Source: Candidatus Heimdallarchaeota archaeon
GTDB lineage: Archaea > Asgardarchaeota > Heimdallarchaeia > JABLTI01
Length of the DNA stretch: 15,427 nucleotides
Assembly: GCA_030614005.1 (NCBI GenBank)
Contig: JAUWKS010000070.1
Location: 1 to 15,427, forward strand
Reading direction: 5' to 3'
This document shows, in pieces, positions 827 to 11,626 of this stretch. The stretch's first letter is position 1. Every line of letters starts with the position of its first letter. A model generated the notes under the pieces. That model saw only the letters and a program-made list of their open reading frames with translations, was not told the origin of the DNA and did not search any database. The position numbers were made by a program, and so were the translations under genes.

Positions 827-839
827 AAATAAGAAAATA
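827..839 (-). terminator. Putative T-rich terminator of the 5S precursor
   Basis: TATTTTCTTATTT immediately follows the 3' arm of the processing stem. Confidence 0.45.
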
Positions 840-841
840 GT

Positions 842-998
842 CGCCAAAACTCACCATTTCCGGGATCGGACGGGTCCGGGTGTTGCCCTCCAGCTTTGAC
901 CGCGTCGCAACGCAGCTTTACGATTTTCCCGAACGATCGCTCAGATCAGTAATCATCATAACGTATAGAGGCTTAACTTCCAGTGATGAGTTTTTGCG
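842..998 (-). other. Precursor processing stem with a bulge-helix-bulge-like motif flanking the permuted 5S
   Basis: CGCAAAAACTCATCA (998-984) pairs with TGGTGAGTTTTGGCG (856-842), with one mismatch and one G-U. Central helix CTGG (983-980)/CCGG (863-860). Three-nt bulges AAG (979-977) and AAA (859-857). Confidence 0.85.
858..977 (-). rRNA. rrf: 5S rRNA, circularly permuted gene (3' half 977-907 precedes 5' half 906-858)
   Basis: Minus strand reads GTTAAGCCTCTATACGTTATGATGATTACTGATCTGAGCGATCGTTCGGGAAAATCGTAAAGCTGCGTTGC then GACGCGGTCAAAGCTGGAGGGCAACACCCGGACCCGTCCGATCCCGGAA. Swapping the halves gives a 120-nt 5S in which helices I-V can all be drawn by hand. Confidence 0.93.
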
Positions 999-1022: not shown

Positions 1023-1030
1023 TTTTTAAA
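1023..1030 (-). promoter_or_regulatory. Putative TATA box (TTTAAAAA) of the 5S precursor
   Basis: Lies about 25 nt upstream of the start of the processing stem (998), with a purine-rich BRE-like sequence upstream. Confidence 0.55.
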
Positions 1031-1056
1031 GTTTGCCATCTTTCTTTTTGTTTTCC

Positions 1057-1208
1057 TCTCAACGTTCTTTTCTTCTTTTTTCGAGTCTTCTCCTGCCGTT
1101 GCTCACTTGTGAATGTTTGTTTTTCGACCGTTTTTCTTGTTTTCTTCTTAAGTTCTCAACGCTTTCTTTTTGTGTGTTGCGCACTCTTCCCTGCGTCGTT
1201 GCTCACTT
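1057..1208. repeat. Two imperfect direct repeats (1057-1108, 1154-1208)
   Basis: Both copies read TCTCAACG...CTGC(C/GT)CGTTGCTCACTT-like, spaced about 100 bp apart in a pyrimidine-rich intergenic region. Confidence 0.65.
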
Positions 1209-1285
1209 CTTTGGTCTTTTTATAGTTTCTTTCGACTTTTCATTGGAGCTTCTTTTCATGGTTTCCCCCAATTCCTCTTCTTCAT

Positions 1286-2926
1286 CTACTTCCGTTTCTT
1301 AGAGAAAATGAGTATGATGACAAGTATGAATGCGATGAGTGGCATGACAGCTATGAATACTAAGAAACCATCAACAGTATGGGAAGGTGTAGCAGGTAGG
1401 GGGGTAGTAGGGGAAGGTATATCGGGTAGGGGGGTATCAACAAATTTCACAATAAACATGTCACTATAATCACTGGTTGTATTATCATAAGCATTTAAGG
1501 TTGGAAATTCAGTTGACCAAGTATTACCTATGACAAAACAACTGCCATTCTCAGCAGCATCAATTCCATATCCCATATCAGTTGAATTCCCACCAAGGTA
1601 GGTGCTCCAGAAGAGTGATCCAGTAGAGGAAAATTTCATAACAAAAGTATCATAGCCATGTGCTTTGGAATCATCATATGCATTGAGAGTGGGGAAATTC
1701 TCGGAACCAGTATACCCTACGACATAGCAGCTCCCGTCACTTGTGACTGCAACATCATAGCCACGTTCGCCACTACTTCCGCCAAGGAAAGAGCTCCAGA
1801 GAAACGAACCATTAGAATCAAACTTGGCAAGAAATGCATCACCCCCCCTCCCATAGGTGTTGTTATACCCATGTTGTGTCGGAAAATCAGGTGAATCAGT
1901 ATAACCTGTGACATAACAGCTGCCATCACTTGCAGTAGTAATGCCCAACGCTTCATCCCAATAAATCCCACCAAAGTAGGTACTCCAGAGTAAGGAACCA
2001 TTCTTGTTAAACTTCGAAAGATAGACATCCCAGTCACCATTCTGGGTAGTATCATAAGCGTTCTGTGTCGGAAAATCAGGTGATGAAGTAAAACCTGTAA
2101 TATAGCAGCTTCCATCACTGGTCACAGTAATCCCATATCCCCCATCAATTCTGTTCCCACCAAAGTAAGAACTCCACAGAAGGGTACCATTCGAAGCAAA
2201 TTTAGTAAGAAAGATGTCTTTACTACCACCATTATACGTACTCTCATAGGCATTGAGAGTGGGAAAATCAATGGATGTGGTCTCTCCTGTTACATAACAG
2301 CTTCCATCAGGCGCAACAGCTATACTATGCCCAATATCCAAGTCACCCCCACCACCAAGGTAGGTACTCCAGAGTAATGAGCCATTTGCTGCGAACTTGG
2401 CAACAAACGCATCAGTTAAACCTCCGTTAAATGTATTATCAAAGGCATTTTTGGTTGGAAAATCGCTGGATGTGGTCTCTCCTGTTACATAACAGCTCCC
2501 ATCACTCGCAACAGCTATATCCCGAGCAATATCAACCATACCTCCCCCTCCAAAGTAAGTACTCCAAAGCAGTGAATTATTACTTGCAAATTTTGTTACA
2601 ACTGCATCATTGCCACCATTCAAAGTATTATCATATGCGTTTTGTGTCGGAAAATCACTGGATTTAGTTTGCCCTGTGACGTAATAACTTCCATCGTCAG
2701 TCATAGCAATACCTTGTCCATTATCCCCTCCATCGTCACCACCAAGGAAGGTGCTATAATTCAGCTTAGGATAAATAGCTGGTAAAGTTTCAGAACGAGT
2801 TACTGTGTGAATAGGATCAAAAGGAAATTTTTGTTGAGGTATTAAAAAAAGTAGTATACTAATAAGAAGAACAATGCCCAAACGATTAAGAACCAACCGA
2901 AAAGATTTTACCATACAAATCCCCAA
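1286..2926 (-). CDS. Membrane-anchored SBBP-repeat (seven-bladed beta-propeller) surface protein; likely start ATG at 2914
   Basis: Seven ~63-aa repeats of W-S-T-Y-[FL]-G-G...DGSCYVTG.T.S.DFPT..AY, an N-terminal hydrophobic signal, a Pro/Thr linker, a C-terminal TM helix and a KKRK tail. Confidence 0.92.
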   Translation of the reverse strand: MGICMVKSFRLVLNRLGIVLLISILLFLIPQQKFPFDPIHTVTRSETLPAIYPKLNYSTFLGGDDGGDNGQGIAMTDDGSYYVTGQTKSSDFPTQNAYDNTLNGGNDAVVTKFASNNSLLWSTYFGGGGMVDIARDIAVASDGSCYVTGETTSSDFPTKNAFDNTFNGGLTDAFVAKFAANGSLLWSTYLGGGGDLDIGHSIAVAPDGSCYVTGETTSIDFPTLNAYESTYNGGSKDIFLTKFASNGTLLWSSYFGGNRIDGGYGITVTSDGSCYITGFTSSPDFPTQNAYDTTQNGDWDVYLSKFNKNGSLLWSTYFGGIYWDEALGITTASDGSCYVTGYTDSPDFPTQHGYNNTYGRGGDAFLAKFDSNGSFLWSSFLGGSSGERGYDVAVTSDGSCYVVGYTGSENFPTLNAYDDSKAHGYDTFVMKFSSTGSLFWSTYLGGNSTDMGYGIDAAENGSCFVIGNTWSTEFPTLNAYDNTTSDYSDMFIVKFVDTPLPDIPSPTTPLPATPSHTVDGFLVFIAVMPLIAFILVIILIFSKKRK

Positions 2927-3762: not shown

Positions 3763-4191
3763 TTAAACAAATAATTGTATATCAGCATCAACTGCTATAT
3801 CTAAAAATCCTGCTGCACCCATAAATCCATCTACTTCTGGGATTAGGTGTTCTTTTTTTACCATCATTAAATCCATAGTAGCGGTACAAGCATAAATTGT
3901 AAGGTTACCAGAATCTTTTGCTGCTTCTAGCAATTCTTGCATTGATGCGATTCCTACTTTCCTTATTCGCCACCGCATCATTCCAGTGCCTAAGCGCATA
4001 ATTCCTGGCAATTTCGCTCTTTTCAAACCTTTTTTCCTTAAGAGAAGAAGGCCCCAGAATGTGAAGAACAAATCGATTTTCATATCAGATGCTCCTGCAG
4101 CTGCAGCAAGCATTAATGGTGGGTAAGCTTTGTCTAGAGTACCTGAATGTACGACAATAGCCATTTTTTTAACATCAACCATTTTTATCAT
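3763..4191 (-). CDS. DsrE2/DsrE-F-like family protein
   Basis: Motifs IVVHSGTLDKAYPPLMLA, LFFTFWGL, YACTATM and GAAGFL; directly upstream of tusA. Confidence 0.88.
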   Translation of the reverse strand: MIKMVDVKKMAIVVHSGTLDKAYPPLMLAAAAGASDMKIDLFFTFWGLLLLRKKGLKRAKLPGIMRLGTGMMRWRIRKVGIASMQELLEAAKDSGNLTIYACTATMDLMMVKKEHLIPEVDGFMGAAGFLDIAVDADIQLFV

Positions 4192-4357: not shown

Positions 4358-4723
4358 TTGGGTAAAATAGCATTTCTTGTAATGACTTCACCGTACAGCT
4401 TTCAAAATTCTGACACTGTCATTCATTTTGCAAAGGCAGCAATAAAAGCTGGACATGAAGTTACAGGCATTTATCTTTACACAGATGGGGTGTATAATGT
4501 TGTAAAAGACATTGAACCATCTGATGATAGAGATCGAAATATTCCTGCATTGTTTAAGGAGCTTATTGATGCCGGAATACCTGTTGTTGCTTGTCCGATT
4601 TGTGCTGAATATCGTGGTACAATGGGCAAGGAAAAGATTATCGAAGGAAGTAGTTTTGATGGTCTTGGTGCTCTTAGCGAGTACGTTGAAGATTCCGATC
4701 GGATTCTTATTTTTACTGCATAA
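4358..4723 (+). CDS. DsrE/TusD-like sulfur relay subunit
   Basis: Motifs IYLYTDGVY and ACPICAEYRG; first of three ~110-120-aa consecutive genes. Confidence 0.85.
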   Translation: MGKIAFLVMTSPYSFQNSDTVIHFAKAAIKAGHEVTGIYLYTDGVYNVVKDIEPSDDRDRNIPALFKELIDAGIPVVACPICAEYRGTMGKEKIIEGSSFDGLGALSEYVEDSDRILIFTA

Positions 4724-4736
4724 AAGGTGAGATGGT

Positions 4737-5096
4737 ATGGAACGTGTTATTGTTCTCTTTCGTAAAGGCCCTTACGGTCAAATAAACAGTTTAGAAGGCA
4801 TCCGCGTTGGGCAAGGGTTACTTGTTTTAGATGTGGAAAACGATGCTGTTTTTATTGATGATGGTGTTTTCAATCTCATTAAAGATCAAAATCCCGATGG
4901 AATTGGTCATCATTCAGTTATGGGTGCTCTTGAAGCTCTACATAGGTACGAAGTACCCATCTTTGCACTTGATCAATCACTCGAGCAAAGAGGTATCAAA
5001 GCAGAAGACCTTGATCCCAAACTTGAAGTGAAAATAATTTCACTTGCTGAGCTTAGCGAACTGCTCATAGTAGCAGATGCTACAATTGCTCTTTAG
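4737..5096 (+). CDS. DsrF/TusC-like subunit
   Basis: Motifs KGPYG, VFIDDGVFNL and SLEQRGI. Confidence 0.85.
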   Translation: MERVIVLFRKGPYGQINSLEGIRVGQGLLVLDVENDAVFIDDGVFNLIKDQNPDGIGHHSVMGALEALHRYEVPIFALDQSLEQRGIKAEDLDPKLEVKIISLAELSELLIVADATIAL

Positions 5097-5108
5097 GAGG
5101 TAATTAAA

Positions 5109-5438
5109 ATGGTGAAAGTATTGTACATAACCTCAAAAAGTATCTACACTTGTGCTGCACAAGGAACCCTACTTGATATTACAAAAAGTCAAATGGATAA
5201 TGGTCATGATGTTGGTGTTCTCTTAATACAAGATAGCACTTTAGCTGCATGGAAAGGTGGAAAGAACATCATAGCTGAAGCTGCTGCTCACGGTGTTGAA
5301 GTATATGCAATAAAAGAAGATTTGGAAGCTCGTGGGATTACTGGAGACAAAGTTCATCCAGGCATAAAGCAAGTGGATTATGATGAATCCATTTCCATTA
5401 TAATGGATAAATATGAGAAAGTTATCACTTGGTGTTAA
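5109..5438 (+). CDS. DsrH/TusB-like subunit
   Basis: Motifs LLIQDS, YAIKEDLEARGI and C-terminal ITW. Confidence 0.87.
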   Translation: MVKVLYITSKSIYTCAAQGTLLDITKSQMDNGHDVGVLLIQDSTLAAWKGGKNIIAEAAAHGVEVYAIKEDLEARGITGDKVHPGIKQVDYDESISIIMDKYEKVITWC

Positions 5439-5584: not shown

Positions 5585-6421
5585 ATGGCAAATAAAGATG
5601 AAAAACCAAAACTTTCCGGTCTAGCTATTGACCCAAAGAAAGCTAAAGTAAATGCTACCTTGAAAGATATTAAACATGTTTTAATCGTAGCAAGTGGAAA
5701 AGGTGGAGTGGGTAAAACAACAGTGGCAGTAAATCTAGCAACTTCGTTATCTCAAAAAGGACATAAAGTCGGCATTCTCGATGCAGATATTACAGGTCCA
5801 AATGTTCCTAAAATGGTTGGATTGGAAGGGCAACGACCAGACTATAATGAAGAATTGAAAAAAATCATTCCTGTTGAATCAGCTCAAGGAGTCAAAGTAA
5901 TTTCTATGGAGTTTCTTTTAGAAGACAATACAGATGCTATCATTTGGCGTGGTCCTCTAAAAATGGGAGCAATCAATCAGTTTCTTGGAGATGTCAAGTG
6001 GGGTGAATTAGATTATCTAATCATTGATCTTCCACCCGGAACCAGCGATGAACCATTAAGTATCGCACAAATGATACCAGAAGCAGATGGAGTTGTAATT
6101 GTCACTACACCTCAAGAAGTAGCTTTGTTGGATGTTAGAAAATCAATTAATTTTGTAAAGAAAGTAGGATTGAAAGTTATTGGTATTATTGAGAATATGA
6201 GCGGTTTCAAGTGCCCTCATTGCAGTGAAGTCATTAACATATTCGGTATTGATGGTGGAAAAAATGCTGCCAAGGAACTTAATATTCCATTCTTAGGTGC
6301 TATTCCTCTTAATCCAGAGATAGTTCCACTTGCTGATGCAGGTAAACCAATTGTTTCTGTTGAAGCTGAAACAAAAGAAGCTTTTCAAAATATCGTTGAA
6401 AATATCTTGAAAGAAATTTAA
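5585..6421 (+). CDS. mrp: Mrp/NBP35 (ApbC) Fe-S cluster carrier ATPase
   Basis: Deviant Walker [24 protein letters not shown] and ENMS..FKCPHC. Confidence 0.95.
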
Positions 6422-6463: not shown

Positions 6464-7261
6464 CTATATCATAAACGATTTTGCGTCTTTCTTACCAATG
6501 CCAGATTTACGCATATCATCTATCACTTTCAACGCATTAGCTTCTGTTTGTTCAATTTCTTTGATCATTTTATCCATTTTTGAAAGATCTAATTCAATTC
6601 CAGTCATTTTCATAACAGCTTTCAACACATTTTTTGCTGCAATTGGATCCACTCCAAAAGCCATAGAATTACTATCACTTAGATTTACTTTACCCATTAA
6701 TCCGAATGATTTCATACCTCGCTCTGCAGCAAGAGCTGTTAGAACACCAACTGCTCCACTTACTCTTCCTTCAGTGAATAATTTAATACCCCAATCCTTA
6801 ACACTCTGAGCATCGTCTTCAGTAAAAGCAAAAGCTGTTGTGTCTGGAGTCGTTTTTATATCAGCAGGTCTAAAACCACCAATGGCTATTACAGTTTCAA
6901 TCCCCCATTTTTGAGCTAAATCCAAAGTGGCATTTATTACCCTAAACATCCCATCTGGACCTTCTTGCGGTTGGCTTTCTCCTGTTAGTACAAGAATTGG
7001 TGGATTCGTAGATTCTATTGCATACAGTTCAGCATGAATTAATTTTCCCAAATCTCCTTGGAAGATTACTAGATGCGGGAAATAGCTTGAAAATATTTTT
7101 GCCGATTCTTTTGCTTTGAAGTAATCAATAAGATGCATCCCAGCCATACGGCCTACTAGTCCTTGCCCGGGGAAACACTGAATTAATACTCCACCTTTCA
7201 ATTTATGTTCCTTAATTATTTTAACAAATGTATCTGGGTATTTTGAAGTCATTTTACACAC
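6464..7261 (-). CDS. PAC2-family proteasome assembly chaperone; likely start ATG at 7252
   Basis: Motifs FPGQGLVG, LVLTGESQP, IAIGG and GVDPIAAK; downstream of rpl44e. Confidence 0.85.
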   Translation of the reverse strand: MCKMTSKYPDTFVKIIKEHKLKGGVLIQCFPGQGLVGRMAGMHLIDYFKAKESAKIFSSYFPHLVIFQGDLGKLIHAELYAIESTNPPILVLTGESQPQEGPDGMFRVINATLDLAQKWGIETVIAIGGFRPADIKTTPDTTAFAFTEDDAQSVKDWGIKLFTEGRVSGAVGVLTALAAERGMKSFGLMGKVNLSDSNSMAFGVDPIAAKNVLKAVMKMTGIELDLSKMDKMIKEIEQTEANALKVIDDMRKSGIGKKDAKSFMI

Positions 7262-9518: not shown

Positions 9519-10781
9519 TTATCTTCTTCTTGGGGGACGTCCTCCACTTTTATGTTTACCATTTGATTTTGACTGTCTTGGCCTCTGACTTGAATGCGGT
9601 CTCGTTCTAGGAGTTTGCATTCTCTTCGATTTGTCGGGAGGTTCTGGATATTTGGTTTTTATTTCATTGATCTTTGCGTTCAAATCTTTAGCAATTTCTT
9701 TAGAATTATCAACAGCCTCAAAGAAATCCATTCGAGCAGCTATTGATAACCTACCTGCAATTACTCGAGCAATTTTTCCTCTAAGCCACCATTTTGACTG
9801 ATTTAATTTTGGGTCTTGGAAAATAATGCCATGTTTTGGAGGAGGAGCGCCTGTTTTAATGGTACGATAAAGTGCTTTCTCTGCACCCAGTATTTGTATT
9901 TTACTTGATGGGGAAAAAGCAAGACTTCTGAGGCTACCTGACAATGCTATTAACCGAGCACCAATAAGAGCACTTGTAACACCACACATATTTGGTGCTA
10001 TTGTAGTCATTGTTTCTTCCATCCACTTCTCTAAATCTATTCTTCTAACATACAAGTCAGCAACTACTTTAGCTTGCTTTTTAATAATTTCAATGTCTCG
10101 ATCAAGAAGAGTTGAGCCCATCGATTTTTCTCTTGCATCAAGTATACTCTGTGCTTTTTTAGCGGGGAGATGAAGCTCATCAACAAGTAATTTTTTATCA
10201 ATATTTGACTTGTCGCCAGTTTTGCTAACAATTATTGCAAAAGTATTATGATTTTCTATTGCATCAGCCAATTCCGGAAAATGCATTCCGTAAAATTCAC
10301 GCAATCTACCAGCGAATAAATTAAGTGTTTTATCAATGTCATCTATTGTTTCAATTGCATGAACAACCAATCTATCTCTCTTTTCTGCTGCTTGTCTAAC
10401 TCTTTCTCGAGTTACTAAAAGATTAACTTCTCGCAGAAACCTTCTGTATTTGTAATCATCAGAGAATAAACCAGAATTTACAACTTGATCTACGATTTCT
10501 TTGTGGAATTTATCGATTATTGGGTTATCGTAATTTCCTAAAACTTTGAATCCTTTTCCGGAGAGAGTCCTTCCTATATCTGGACGTTGAACTGAAATTT
10601 CATCGCTTTTGTGTTCCTTTAGCATTTCAGCTAGTTCTTTTGGAAGCTCTCCTCCATCCAACAAAACTAGTTTTTCAGCTATTTTTGTTGGGTCGAGCTC
10701 AAAATAACGAACATCAATGATGTTGCCCTCTTCATCCAAGAGAACGGGTCCCACATATGAAATTGCAAGATAAGTTTTCAT
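9519..10781 (-). CDS. nop5: Nop5 (Nop56/58) box C/D RNP protein
   Basis: Motifs RLREFYGMHFPEL, IQILGAEKALYR, PPKHGIIFQ and RGKIAR, with a basic C-terminal tail; adjacent to fibrillarin. Confidence 0.96.
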   Translation of the reverse strand: MKTYLAISYVGPVLLDEEGNIIDVRYFELDPTKIAEKLVLLDGGELPKELAEMLKEHKSDEISVQRPDIGRTLSGKGFKVLGNYDNPIIDKFHKEIVDQVVNSGLFSDDYKYRRFLREVNLLVTRERVRQAAEKRDRLVVHAIETIDDIDKTLNLFAGRLREFYGMHFPELADAIENHNTFAIIVSKTGDKSNIDKKLLVDELHLPAKKAQSILDAREKSMGSTLLDRDIEIIKKQAKVVADLYVRRIDLEKWMEETMTTIAPNMCGVTSALIGARLIALSGSLRSLAFSPSSKIQILGAEKALYRTIKTGAPPPKHGIIFQDPKLNQSKWWLRGKIARVIAGRLSIAARMDFFEAVDNSKEIAKDLNAKINEIKTKYPEPPDKSKRMQTPRTRPHSSQRPRQSKSNGKHKSGGRPPRRR

Positions 10782-10876: not shown

Positions 10877-11626
10877 TTATCGTTTTAAAAGCATTTCAAC
10901 GAATATTGGTAATGTTTCCTCACTTTTTCCTTCTATATATGAGTCTGCAATACTGACATGTTCAGTTTCTTCGTAATTAAAGACGATTATTTTTGCACCC
11001 TTCCTTTTAGATATGATGGGCAAACCAGCAGCTGGATACACCTCTGCACTTGTTCCTACTATCAAAACTAAATTTGCCTTATTTGCAATATCAAAAGACT
11101 TGGTAATTTCTTCTTCAGGCAATGTTTCGTTAAATAAAGTAACATCAGGTCTCATCATACCACCACATGAGCACATAGGAGGTACTACTTTTGGTGTTTC
11201 TATTAATTGTTGAGGTTTACCACAAACAATACATTTGATCCTAGCTAGATTACCGTGAACTTCAATAACATTTTTCGAACCAGCTTTTTGATGCAATGAA
11301 TCAACATTCTGAGTAATAATGTGATGACAATATCCATTCTTTTCTAATTCGACTATTGCCTTGTGCGCTGCATTAGGTTTTGCATTGAATATTTGATGGA
11401 TACCTTCCTGGTACATTTTCCATATTTTTGTAGGGTTTCTCATCCATCCTTCTAAAGTGGCTACTTCTTCAAAATCATAAGTATCCCATAATCCATCTTC
11501 ACCACGAAATGTTGGAATACCAGATCCTTTTGAAACACCTGCACCTGTAAGCACATAACTCTGAATTTGTTCTTTGGCTTCAAGTTCTTTCACAAGCGTA
11601 ACTGCATTTGTTATTTTTTTGAGCAT
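10877..11626 (-). CDS. cobB: Sir2/CobB-family NAD-dependent protein deacylase
   Basis: Motifs TGAGVS..SGIPTFRG, ITQNVDSLH, HG, CxxC...CxC, RPDVTLFNE and GTSAEVYPAA. Confidence 0.95.
   Translation of the reverse strand: MLKKITNAVTLVKELEAKEQIQSYVLTGAGVSKGSGIPTFRGEDGLWDTYDFEEVATLEGWMRNPTKIWKMYQEGIHQIFNAKPNAAHKAIVELEKNGYCHHIITQNVDSLHQKAGSKNVIEVHGNLARIKCIVCGKPQQLIETPKVVPPMCSCGGMMRPDVTLFNETLPEEEITKSFDIANKANLVLIVGTSAEVYPAAGLPIISKRKGAKIIVFNYEETEHVSIADSYIEGKSEETLPIFVEMLLKR

What the first reader, a model, noticed from the sequence alone, without database searches (positions are those of the whole stretch)
899..916. Short helix I sealed by a UGCG tetraloop: the mature 5S may stay a covalent circle
Seen: where the 5' and 3' ends normally lie, the strands are joined as GCUGCGU-UGCG-ACGCGGU, a 6-7 bp helix with a UNCG-like tetraloop and no spacer. 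Established: linear 5S helix I is usually longer, and the permuted Thermoproteus SRP RNA functions as a circle. Inference: no second cleavage is needed, and ribosomes could carry an end-less 5S rRNA.
Basis: inference. Interest (0 to 1): 0.75.

Follow-up and report, generated by a model that had tools for sequence, protein, structure and literature searches.

The report
Capped helix I of permuted 5S
The small hairpin is the sealed outer end of a 5S ribosomal RNA gene that this Asgard archaeon encodes back half first between tRNA-splicing cut signals, so the working 5S RNA is probably a closed 120-base ring, but no RNA data could be examined here.

Summary
On the minus strand, window 916..899 reads GCUGCGU-UGCG-ACGCGGU, which is 7 base pairs (two of them G-U) plus a 4-base loop with no spacer.

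It is helix I of a circularly permuted 5S rRNA gene. The order is 3' half, cap, 5' half. The gene has its own archaeal promoter.
- **Flanks:** they form a bulge-helix-bulge splice motif.
- **Predicted product:** the cuts give a 120-nt piece (977..858). Joining its ends restores the canonical GGAA-GUUAAG of helix III.
- **Only 5S:** the genome has no other 5S gene.
- **Conservation:** 43 distinct related loci keep a 7-9 bp capped helix I, with compensatory changes and loops of only 3-5 nt. In 29 of 43 the loop is UNCG. Ordinary Asgard 5S genes have a 9-bp open helix I.
- **Enzymes:** the genome encodes two splicing-endonuclease genes and one RtcB ligase.

That the ring stays closed in the ribosome fits all of this, but it remains an inference.

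This scan has already reported the permuted Asgard 5S many times on other DNA, including the same cap argument. I found no paper that describes it.

The parts
1023..1040 (-). Archaeal promoter: TATA box TTTAAAAA (1030..1023) preceded by a purine-rich BRE-like stretch. The inferred transcription start is near 1000.
   Evidence: The AAACTTTAAA block sits at a fixed distance upstream of the leader in 10 of the 11 family f1 loci shown; G011 has a shifted TTTTTAA version. The start site is inferred from the usual archaeal spacing of about 26 nt and was not mapped.
984..994 (-). Leader strand of the outer helix of the splice motif (AAAACUCAUCA). It pairs with 856..846.
   Evidence: The outer helix is 11 bp in the window and in all 10 other f1 loci, with compensatory changes such as CAUCA/UGGUG to CAUCG/CGAUG. 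It is present in the minimum-energy fold and the centroid fold of the precursor.
980..983 (-). Leader strand of the 4-bp central helix (CUGG). It pairs with CCGG at 863..860.
   Evidence: Geometry test and precursor fold.
977..979 (-). 5' bulge AAG. The predicted cut lies between 978 and 977, so the ring starts at G977.
   Evidence: Placed by the known cut position after the second bulge base (established knowledge of archaeal bulge-helix-bulge cleavage). This gives an exactly canonical junction.
858..977 (-). The 120-nt 5S rRNA body, predicted to be excised and ring-closed: 3' half, cap, 5' half.
   Evidence: The rotated sequence aligns colinearly with ordinary Asgard 5S, with no gap at the junction. 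Rfam gives split weak hits at 858-881 and 911-1022. Model R1 scores it 162.9 bits.
910..916 (-). Helix I, strand corresponding to the normal 3' end (GCUGCGU).
906..909 (-). UGCG cap loop joining the positions of the normal 3' and 5' ends.
   Evidence: The loop is UNCG in 29 of 43 distinct loci.
899..905 (-). Helix I, strand corresponding to the normal 5' end (ACGCGGU), followed by loop A (CAAAG).
860..863 (-). CCGG: the 3' strand of helix III in the mature RNA, and the central-helix partner of leader CUGG in the precursor.
857..859 (-). 3' bulge AAA. The predicted cut lies between 858 and 857, so the ring ends at A858.
   Evidence: (the 3-nt bulge appears in the minimum-energy fold).
846..856 (-). 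Trailer strand of the outer helix (UGGUGAGUUUU). It ends in a U run, and a second U run lies at 837..834. These are the likely transcription stop.
   Evidence: The termination site is inferred from archaeal oligo-U termination and was not mapped.

Best explanation
The hairpin is the closed distal end of helix I of this genome's only 5S rRNA gene. The gene is circularly permuted and reads 3' half, 4-nt cap, 5' half.

Proposed mechanism:
1. The gene is transcribed from its own promoter as a precursor of about 150 nt.
2. Leader and trailer pair into a helix-bulge-helix motif.
3. The tRNA-splicing endonuclease cuts after the second base of each 3-nt bulge.
4. RtcB joins the two ends of the excised 120-nt piece. 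This rebuilds the conserved GGAA-GUUAAG segment of helix III and produces a ring with a normal 5S sequence.

The cap is a structural closure, not a processing site. The ring most likely enters the large ribosomal subunit without being reopened.

**Shown here:** the gene anatomy, its conservation and covariation, the exact junction geometry, the absence of any other 5S gene, and the presence of the enzymes.

**Inferred:** cleavage, ligation, and above all persistence of the ring. My odds are about 0.97 for the permuted gene and cap, about 0.8 for ring formation, and about 0.55 for the ring being the mature ribosomal form.
For: **Sequence and fold**
- Searches confirm the hairpin.
- Rfam sees only two weak, order-swapped 5S pieces.
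- No other 5S match exists in the 3.6-Mb, 90%-complete genome. In two closed genomes of the same class, the only 5S-like hits at E<=10 overlap the permuted loci.

**Ring geometry**
- The predicted ring is exactly 120 nt. Once rotated, it aligns without a junction gap to ordinary Asgard 5S genes.
- The splice motif is an 11-bp outer helix, a 4-bp central helix and two 3-nt bulges. It is present in the window and in all 10 other loci of its family, with compensatory changes.
- 24 of 42 distinct loci pass a strict automated test that yields 120-124-nt rings and canonical junctions.

**Helix I cap**
- The helix is paired in 99.1% of cells, and 6 of 8 pairs change on both sides.
- 43 of 43 loci form 7-9 bp stems with 3-5-nt loops; 29 are UNCG and 31 YNCG.
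- Ordinary Asgard 5S genes have a 9-bp open helix I.

**Distribution**
- Permuted and ordinary genes are complementary across 150 genomes of the phylum.

**Enzymes**
- Two endonuclease-family genes and one RtcB gene are present.

**Published precedents**
- Circular permuted SRP RNA (PMC4731332).
- Circular 23S rRNA in mature archaeal ribosomes (PMC12918454).
- A tetraloop joining the native 5S ends is tolerated in living E. coli, where those ends lie far from 23S rRNA (PMC7283268).
- Low-level circular 5S forms reported in Sulfolobus and Pyrococcus (preprint 10.64898/2026.03.23.713588).
Against:
- The inner helix of a strict bulge-helix-bulge motif is missing. The 5' cut site lies next to unpaired bases, so cleavage needs an endonuclease that accepts relaxed motifs. 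Two paralogues suggest such an enzyme but do not prove it.
- The junction lies at the exposed helix III bulge, where large insertions are tolerated (PMC7812874). An unligated or reopened form could therefore also function.
- The cap's closing pair here is U-A, so the extra stability of C(UNCG)G does not apply.
- Circular 16S rRNA intermediates and, in some archaea, circular 23S are reopened by enzymes that cannot be predicted from sequence.
- A later check elsewhere in this scan priced 'the closed ring is the ribosome's 5S' at 35/100.
Confidence: 0.55

Rival explanations
1. The transcript is cut at the splice motif but not sealed. Alternatively, the seal is not needed and the RNA is only partly sealed. 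The ribosome would then carry a linear, permuted 5S whose ends lie in helix III, held together by the capped helix I and helix II, as in brown-algal mitochondria.
For: The capped helix I and helix II would hold the two halves together. The break lies beside the universally conserved helix III bulge, described as among the least obstructed sites of 5S in the ribosome (PMC7812874). Organelle 5S RNAs that are permuted in the final product are known (PMC4267664).
Against: In archaea, pieces excised at bulge-helix-bulge sites are normally ring-closed by RtcB, and RtcB is encoded here. The predicted junction restores the canonical sequence with no missing or extra base in every locus that passes the geometry test. 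This suggests that continuity is under selection. A relative carries an extra insert inside loop C, which would require ligation anyway.
Confidence: 0.2
2. A ring forms only as an intermediate. It is then reopened, at the helix I cap or elsewhere, to give a linear mature 5S, as with permuted tRNAs or circular pre-16S rRNA.
For: Reopening of circular rRNA intermediates is the classical archaeal pathway, and Thermococcales 23S is reopened at a new site. Permuted tRNAs are matured from a circular intermediate (cited in PMC4267664).
Against: The cap is only 3-5 nt. It has no spacer and no conserved sequence beyond the UNCG type, and no second splice motif is present. The stem is shortened rather than extended. 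No conserved extra element appears anywhere in the 120-nt ring when compared with ordinary 5S.
Confidence: 0.15
3. The locus is a rearranged 5S relic, and the true 5S gene lies in the unassembled 10% of the genome.
For: The genome is a 126-contig assembly at 90% completeness, and rRNA genes often fail to assemble.
Against: The same layout, with compensatory changes, occurs in the 10 other genomes of the genus and the one other genus of the family. A permuted-model match was found in 32 of 33 class genomes searched, including two single-contig genomes whose only 5S-like hits overlap these loci. A conserved promoter is present.
Confidence: 0.03
4. The hairpin is unrelated to 5S. It is a chance palindrome or a terminator-like hairpin for the plus-strand gene that ends at 770.
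For: On its own, the hairpin's energy is reached by 10 of 200 shuffles. On the plus strand a T-rich stretch follows it.
Against: No terminator-like site was called. The hairpin sits exactly between the two 5S halves and covaries as helix I.
Confidence: 0.01

Closest known systems
Permuted, circular SRP RNA of Thermoproteus tenax (Plagens et al. 2015, eLife, PMC4731332)
   Same: The gene halves are in swapped order. The new termini lie in a motif cut by the tRNA-splicing endonuclease. Ligation restores a functional element, and the circle is the working RNA (abstract).
   Different: That case is SRP RNA in a crenarchaeal genus and is shown by RNA-seq, northern blots and binding assays. Here the normal ends are sealed by a 4-nt cap.
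Circularly permuted tRNA genes (Cyanidioschyzon merolae; Soma et al. 2007, as cited in PMC4267664)
   Same: The gene is permuted, the precursor is cut at a splice-type motif, and a ring forms.
   Different: The tRNA ring is only an intermediate. It contains an intervening sequence at the acceptor ends, and end-processing enzymes remove it. Here there is no intervening sequence, only a 3-5-nt cap.
Permuted mitochondrial 5S rRNA of brown algae (Valach et al. 2014, PMC4267664)
   Same: In a 5S rRNA, the open helix I is replaced by a closed hairpin.
   Different: The ends lie at the junction of the alpha and gamma domains. The final RNA is linear and stays permuted. There is no splice motif and no restoration of a continuous canonical sequence.
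Circular 23S rRNA in mature archaeal ribosomes (Genome Biol 2026, PMC12918454) and circular pre-16S/23S intermediates
   Same: Excision depends on a bulge-helix-bulge motif and is followed by ring closure, and an end-less rRNA sits inside the ribosome.
   Different: Those genes are not permuted, and the ring joins the normal ends. That paper states that 5S rRNAs are not processed this way.
Engineered cp5S rRNA of E. coli (Huang et al. 2020, PMC7283268)
   Same: The native 5S ends are joined by a tetraloop, and new ends are opened in another part of the molecule. The ribosomes are active and the cells viable.
   Different: It is artificial. The new ends are in loops C or D and are fused into 23S rRNA. 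It is not a free ring.

Membership tests
5S rRNA (Rfam RF00001) | Scores at or above the family's gathering score (38 bits) as encoded | tested here: not met
   There are two weak pieces in swapped order, at 15.6 and 14 bits. This is the expected failure of a colinear model on a permuted gene.
5S rRNA (Rfam RF00001) | After rotation, colinear with ordinary 5S and carrying its conserved motifs (loop A CAWAG, helix III and loop C, GGAAGUUAAG, GUACUG...GGGAA) | tested here: met
   The MAFFT alignment of 17 rotated sequences with 12 ordinary Asgard 5S genes has no gap at the junction.
5S rRNA (Rfam RF00001) | Helices I, II, IV and V supported by covariation | tested here: met
   Across the structure 94.4% of cells are paired, against 68.6% in shuffles and 35-43% when partners are slid. 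26 of 34 pairs change on both sides. The alignment is fitted to the model, so these counts lean towards the structure.
5S rRNA (Rfam RF00001) | It is the genome's 5S gene (no other copy) | tested here: met
   for the own genome. for two single-contig genomes of the class.
Splice-motif-dependent permuted, ring-forming RNA genes (Thermoproteus SRP RNA type) | Leader and trailer form a bulge-helix-bulge motif whose cut sites give a seamless junction | tested here: met
   The motif has an 11-bp outer helix, the 4-bp central helix CUGG/CCGG, and bulges AAG and AAA. The junction is ...CCCGGAA-GUUAAG.... It is a relaxed form, because the inner helix next to the 5' cut is not paired.
Splice-motif-dependent permuted, ring-forming RNA genes (Thermoproteus SRP RNA type) | Splicing endonuclease and RtcB ligase encoded | tested here: met
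   PF01974 matches at 93.6 and 65 bits on two contigs. PF01139 matches at 578.6 bits.
Splice-motif-dependent permuted, ring-forming RNA genes (Thermoproteus SRP RNA type) | Junction-spanning RNA reads, or exonuclease-resistant RNA | not testable with these tools
Two scans of JGI metagenome contigs for junction sequences found none.
Splice-motif-dependent permuted, ring-forming RNA genes (Thermoproteus SRP RNA type) | The ring, not a reopened form, is the functional RNA | not testable with these tools
   The evidence is indirect only: short variable caps, no spacer and no second motif.
UNCG tetraloop | Loop sequence U-N-C-G | tested here: met
   The window has UGCG. The loop is UNCG in 29 of 43 distinct loci, with N being G, U or A.
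UNCG tetraloop | C-G closing pair of the extra-stable C(UNCG)G form | tested here: not met
   The closing pair here is U-A. Relatives have A-U, U-A, G-C and C-G.
Permuted organelle 5S (mtPerm-5S, Valach 2014) | Ends at the alpha/gamma domain junction, with the final RNA linear and still permuted | tested here: not met
   The break here lies in helix III and inside a splice motif.

The most novel reading that the evidence does not exclude
Ribosomes of Heimdall-group archaea, and of most other Asgard lineages, carry a covalently closed, end-less 5S rRNA as their normal mature form. It would be made from a permuted gene by the tRNA-splicing machinery, with helix I permanently sealed by a short cap. 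This would be the first natural 5S rRNA without ends, and it occurs in the closest archaeal relatives of eukaryotes.
Probability: 0.55. Interest if true: 0.85.

Novelty: new variant of a known kind. Interest (0 to 1): 0.72.

Why it matters
5S rRNA is described as a free linear molecule in all cellular ribosomes. A 2026 paper on circular archaeal rRNAs explicitly excludes 5S from the cut-and-circularise pathway.

A permuted, splice-dependent and probably circular 5S in Asgard archaea would do four things:
- It would explain why the authors of the closed Heimdallarchaeum genomes could not predict a 5S gene (PMC8813620).
- It would make 5S maturation depend on the tRNA-splicing enzymes.
- It would give a natural counterpart to the engineered tetraloop-capped 5S of E. 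coli.
- It would change how rRNA completeness is scored for these genomes.

The cap argument examined here turns 'is the ring an intermediate or the end product?' into a sharply testable question.

Tried and rejected
- **Junction scan, this family.** A scan of JGI metagenome contigs for the ring junction of this family found nothing.
- **Junction scan, degenerate.** A degenerate junction-plus-cap pattern found two DNA contigs. One looks like a chance match. The other is a differently permuted 5S gene. Neither is ring-derived. The collection is probably DNA only, so this says nothing about RNA.
- **Genome-collection scan.** My pattern for genome contigs was too loose. It returned mostly bacterial 5S genes with a chance GGGAA upstream, so it gave no organism names and no distribution.
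- **Energy folding.** Minimum-energy folding of the ring, linear or circular, does not reproduce the 5S three-way junction apart from helix I. The z-score of the 120-nt piece is +0.45. I therefore rely on alignment and covariation, not energy.
- **Splice motifs in ordinary genes.** I looked for splice motifs around six ordinary Asgard 5S genes, as a possible evolutionary precursor, and saw none.
- **Bacterial-type signals.** The bacterial-type promoter hit on the plus strand at 896-924 is a consensus match in an archaeon and was dismissed. No terminator-like site was called.
- **Literature.** Searches for a description of a permuted or circular Asgard 5S found none.
- **Taxon.** 'Heimdall-group' rests on earlier scan notes. 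Two single-contig genomes of the class (3.1 and 3.3 Mb) match the published sizes of the Heimdallarchaeum genomes. I did not verify it by name.

Full report
**1. The observation**

On the minus strand, 916..899 reads GCUGCGU UGCG ACGCGGU. It folds into 7 pairs, two of them G-U, closed by a 4-nt loop at 909..906, with a free energy of -8.1 kcal/mol.

As a stand-alone 18-mer this is not remarkable. The z-score is -1.79, and 10 of 200 shuffles fold as well. Its reality rests on context and comparison, not on energy.

**2. What it belongs to**

Rfam's 5S model finds no gene at its threshold in the window or in the whole 3.6-Mb genome. At relaxed thresholds it finds two weak pieces in the wrong order:
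- Model positions 27-51 (helix III and loop C) match at 858-881.
- The back part of 5S matches upstream of that, at 911-1022.

Read 5' to 3' on the minus strand, the locus runs as follows: leader; GUUAAG and the whole 3' half of 5S; the helix I strand GCUGCGU; the loop UGCG; the helix I strand ACGCGGU; loop A (CAAAG); helix II; helix III and loop C up to CCCGGAA; trailer.

The hairpin therefore joins the positions where the 3' and 5' ends of an ordinary 5S lie.

Rotating the sequence in a script gives a 120-nt molecule. It aligns colinearly, with no gap at the new junction, to ordinary 5S genes of other Asgard lineages. Those ordinary genes have a 9-bp open helix I, for example UGGCGCGGU/ACUGCGCCA, in 11 of 12 cases. 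The permuted genes have 7 bp plus the cap.

**3. The new ends**

Leader and trailer pair:
- The outer helix has 11 bp: AAAACUCAUCA (994..984) pairs with UGGUGAGUUUU (856..846).
- The central helix has 4 bp: CUGG (983..980) pairs with CCGG (863..860).
- One 3-nt bulge sits on each strand: AAG (979..977) and AAA (859..857).

Each strand reads helix, central helix, bulge, helix. This is the layout of the archaeal bulge-helix-bulge splice motif.

Placing the cuts after the second bulge base is established knowledge of that enzyme and was not tested here. The excised piece is then 977..858. Joining its ends gives ...CCCGGAA-GUUAAGCC..., exactly the conserved helix III segment of 5S (compare the Rfam consensus).

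The helix expected on the inner side of the 5' cut is not paired, so the motif is of the relaxed type. The genome encodes two splicing-endonuclease-family genes and one RtcB ligase. Two paralogues fit a heteromeric, broad-specificity enzyme, but that is an inference.

A conserved TATA box with an upstream purine-rich block sits about 26 nt before the leader in 10 of the 11 loci of the family shown. U runs follow the trailer. The gene is therefore a stand-alone transcription unit. Its neighbours are ordinary protein genes.

**4. Relatives**

- BLAST finds the same locus in all 10 other genomes of the genus, in the one other genus of the family, and more weakly in a second family of the class.
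- Only one of 41 genomes of the class reaches the Rfam 5S threshold, and that match is a doubtful one at a contig end.
- I built a covariance model of the permuted precursor. It hits full-length in 32 of 33 class genomes searched and in most other families of the phylum that lack an ordinary 5S gene. It finds nothing in the largest family that has one (0 of 32 genomes against 32 of 32 for Rfam). In a second such family it gives only weak, partial hits that overlap the ordinary gene.
- The two layouts are complementary across the phylum.
- Two single-contig genomes of the class carry two permuted copies each, and their only 5S-like hits at E<=10 overlap those copies. Their sizes, 3.1 and 3.3 Mb, match the published closed Heimdallarchaeum genomes. 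The authors of those genomes wrote that 5S genes 'could not be predicted' (PMC8813620). That these are the same genomes is my inference.

**5. The cap across 43 distinct loci**

- On the model-fitted alignment, helix I is paired in 99.1% of cells, and 6 of 8 pairs change on both sides.
- Folding each hairpin on its own gives 7 pairs in 37 loci, 8 in five and 9 in one, across 26 different hairpin sequences.
- Loops are 3 nt (8 loci), 4 nt (34) or 5 nt (1). No locus has a spacer.
- 29 loops are UNCG (UGCG, UUCG, UACG), and 31 are YNCG.
- Closing pairs differ between lineages: U-A, A-U, G-C and C-G.
- The remaining loops are short and A/U-rich.
- Within the window's own family the loop is UGCG, CUCG, CGCG, UUCG, UGUG or AAUG, on an almost constant stem.

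Selection therefore acts on 'a short stable cap', not on a particular sequence. No second splice motif, spacer or extra conserved element appears anywhere in the ring when compared with ordinary 5S.

**6. Mechanism and how far it is shown**

*Shown by sequence analysis:* a permuted, conserved, promoter-bearing, sole 5S gene; a splice-type motif whose geometry predicts a seamless 120-nt product; a capped and shortened helix I; and the enzymes.

*Established elsewhere:*
- Archaeal endonuclease products are ring-closed by RtcB.
- A permuted SRP RNA works as a circle (PMC4731332).
- Circular 23S rRNA sits in mature archaeal ribosomes (PMC12918454).
- Circular forms of ordinary 5S have been seen at low levels in two archaea.

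*Inferred:* that this transcript is cut and sealed, and that the ring is not reopened.

The cap data argue against reopening at helix I. They do not exclude two other outcomes. One is reopening elsewhere. The other is a nicked, unligated form, because the junction lies at the exposed helix III bulge, where even large insertions are tolerated (PMC7812874).

A relative carries an additional insert of about 30 nt in loop C. If that insert is a spliced intron, ligation would be obligatory for 5S there. I did not analyse its motif.

My odds:
- Ring is the mature form: 0.55.
- Linear, nicked in helix III: 0.2.
- Ring reopened: 0.15.
- Anything else: under 0.1.

**7. Comparison with known systems and novelty**

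It works like the Thermoproteus SRP RNA, which is permuted, flanked by a splice motif and circular. It is unlike permuted tRNAs, whose ring is only an intermediate with an intervening sequence at the acceptor ends. It shares the closed helix I with brown-algal mitochondrial 5S, but that RNA stays linear and permuted and has no splice motif.

Six literature searches found no description of a permuted or circular Asgard 5S.

Within this scan it is not new. Notes on the permuted Asgard 5S exist for at least 128 genomes, including the same 'cap, so it may stay circular' argument. Two notes say that RNA from a relative shows the ring-order join. I could not check those claims and do not count them as evidence.

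**8. Limits**

Two metagenome scans for junction sequences were negative or irrelevant. One genome-collection scan was wasted on a pattern that was too loose. The rotated sequence could not be scored with the Rfam model. The taxon name rests on earlier scan notes and a genome-size match.

Noticed in passing
L076:5146-5240 (-), metagenome contig Ga0299912_10015276: A 5S-like gene permuted at a different place. It starts with helix III and loop C, runs through the 3' half, has helix I capped as GCUGUC-UACUUAG-GACGGC, and ends after loop A and the helix II 5' strand. The break therefore seems to lie between helices II and III. The organism is unknown.
   Followed up: partly
L055:1486-1680 (+) (same as L017), genome G015 of the same class: This permuted 5S gene has an extra insert of about 30 nt after CCGAA in loop C, with a duplicated UCAUUCCG on both sides and an internal hairpin. 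It looks like an intron inside the permuted gene, as an earlier scan note also says. I did not analyse its splice motif.
   Followed up: partly
G036 contigs C90:1-196, C132:1-155, C77:3903-4046, C106:9-131: One genome of the class has four matches to the permuted model, three of them at contig ends. One stretch (C90:77-196) just reaches the Rfam 5S threshold at 38.4 bits, but only its first 55 nt or so look like 5S. It may be a multi-copy or rearranged 5S locus that breaks the assembly.
   Followed up: no
window 1032-1210: The roughly 290-nt gap between the beta-propeller gene (1286-2926, minus strand) and the 5S promoter is strongly purine-rich on the minus strand. It holds two loose direct repeats: 31 nt at 74% identity with 89-nt spacing, and an exact 12-mer CGTTGCTCACTT with 100-nt spacing. 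All frames have stops. Its function is unknown.
   Followed up: partly
window 4358-5438 (+), 3763-4191 (-) and 5585-6421 (+): Three consecutive DsrE/DsrF/DsrH-like genes (a TusBCD-type sulfur-relay set) lie next to a fourth DsrE-like gene on the other strand and an Mrp/NUBPL-type iron-sulfur P-loop ATPase.
   Followed up: no
window 9519-10781 (-) and 10877-11626 (-): A Nop5/56 gene (C/D-box RNP core protein) is followed by a 249-aa ORF in the position where fibrillarin usually lies. The second ORF was not scanned. A PAC2 proteasome-assembly chaperone homologue lies at 6464-7261 (-).
   Followed up: no
loci of family f2, e.g. L047, L051, L056-L064: In this family of the class the leader-trailer pairing is interrupted: 3 bp, an internal loop, then about 4 bp with a bulged A. 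My strict geometry test fails in most of them, although the central helix CGGG/CCUG and both AAA bulges are present. The splice motif is more relaxed there than in the window's family.
   Followed up: partly
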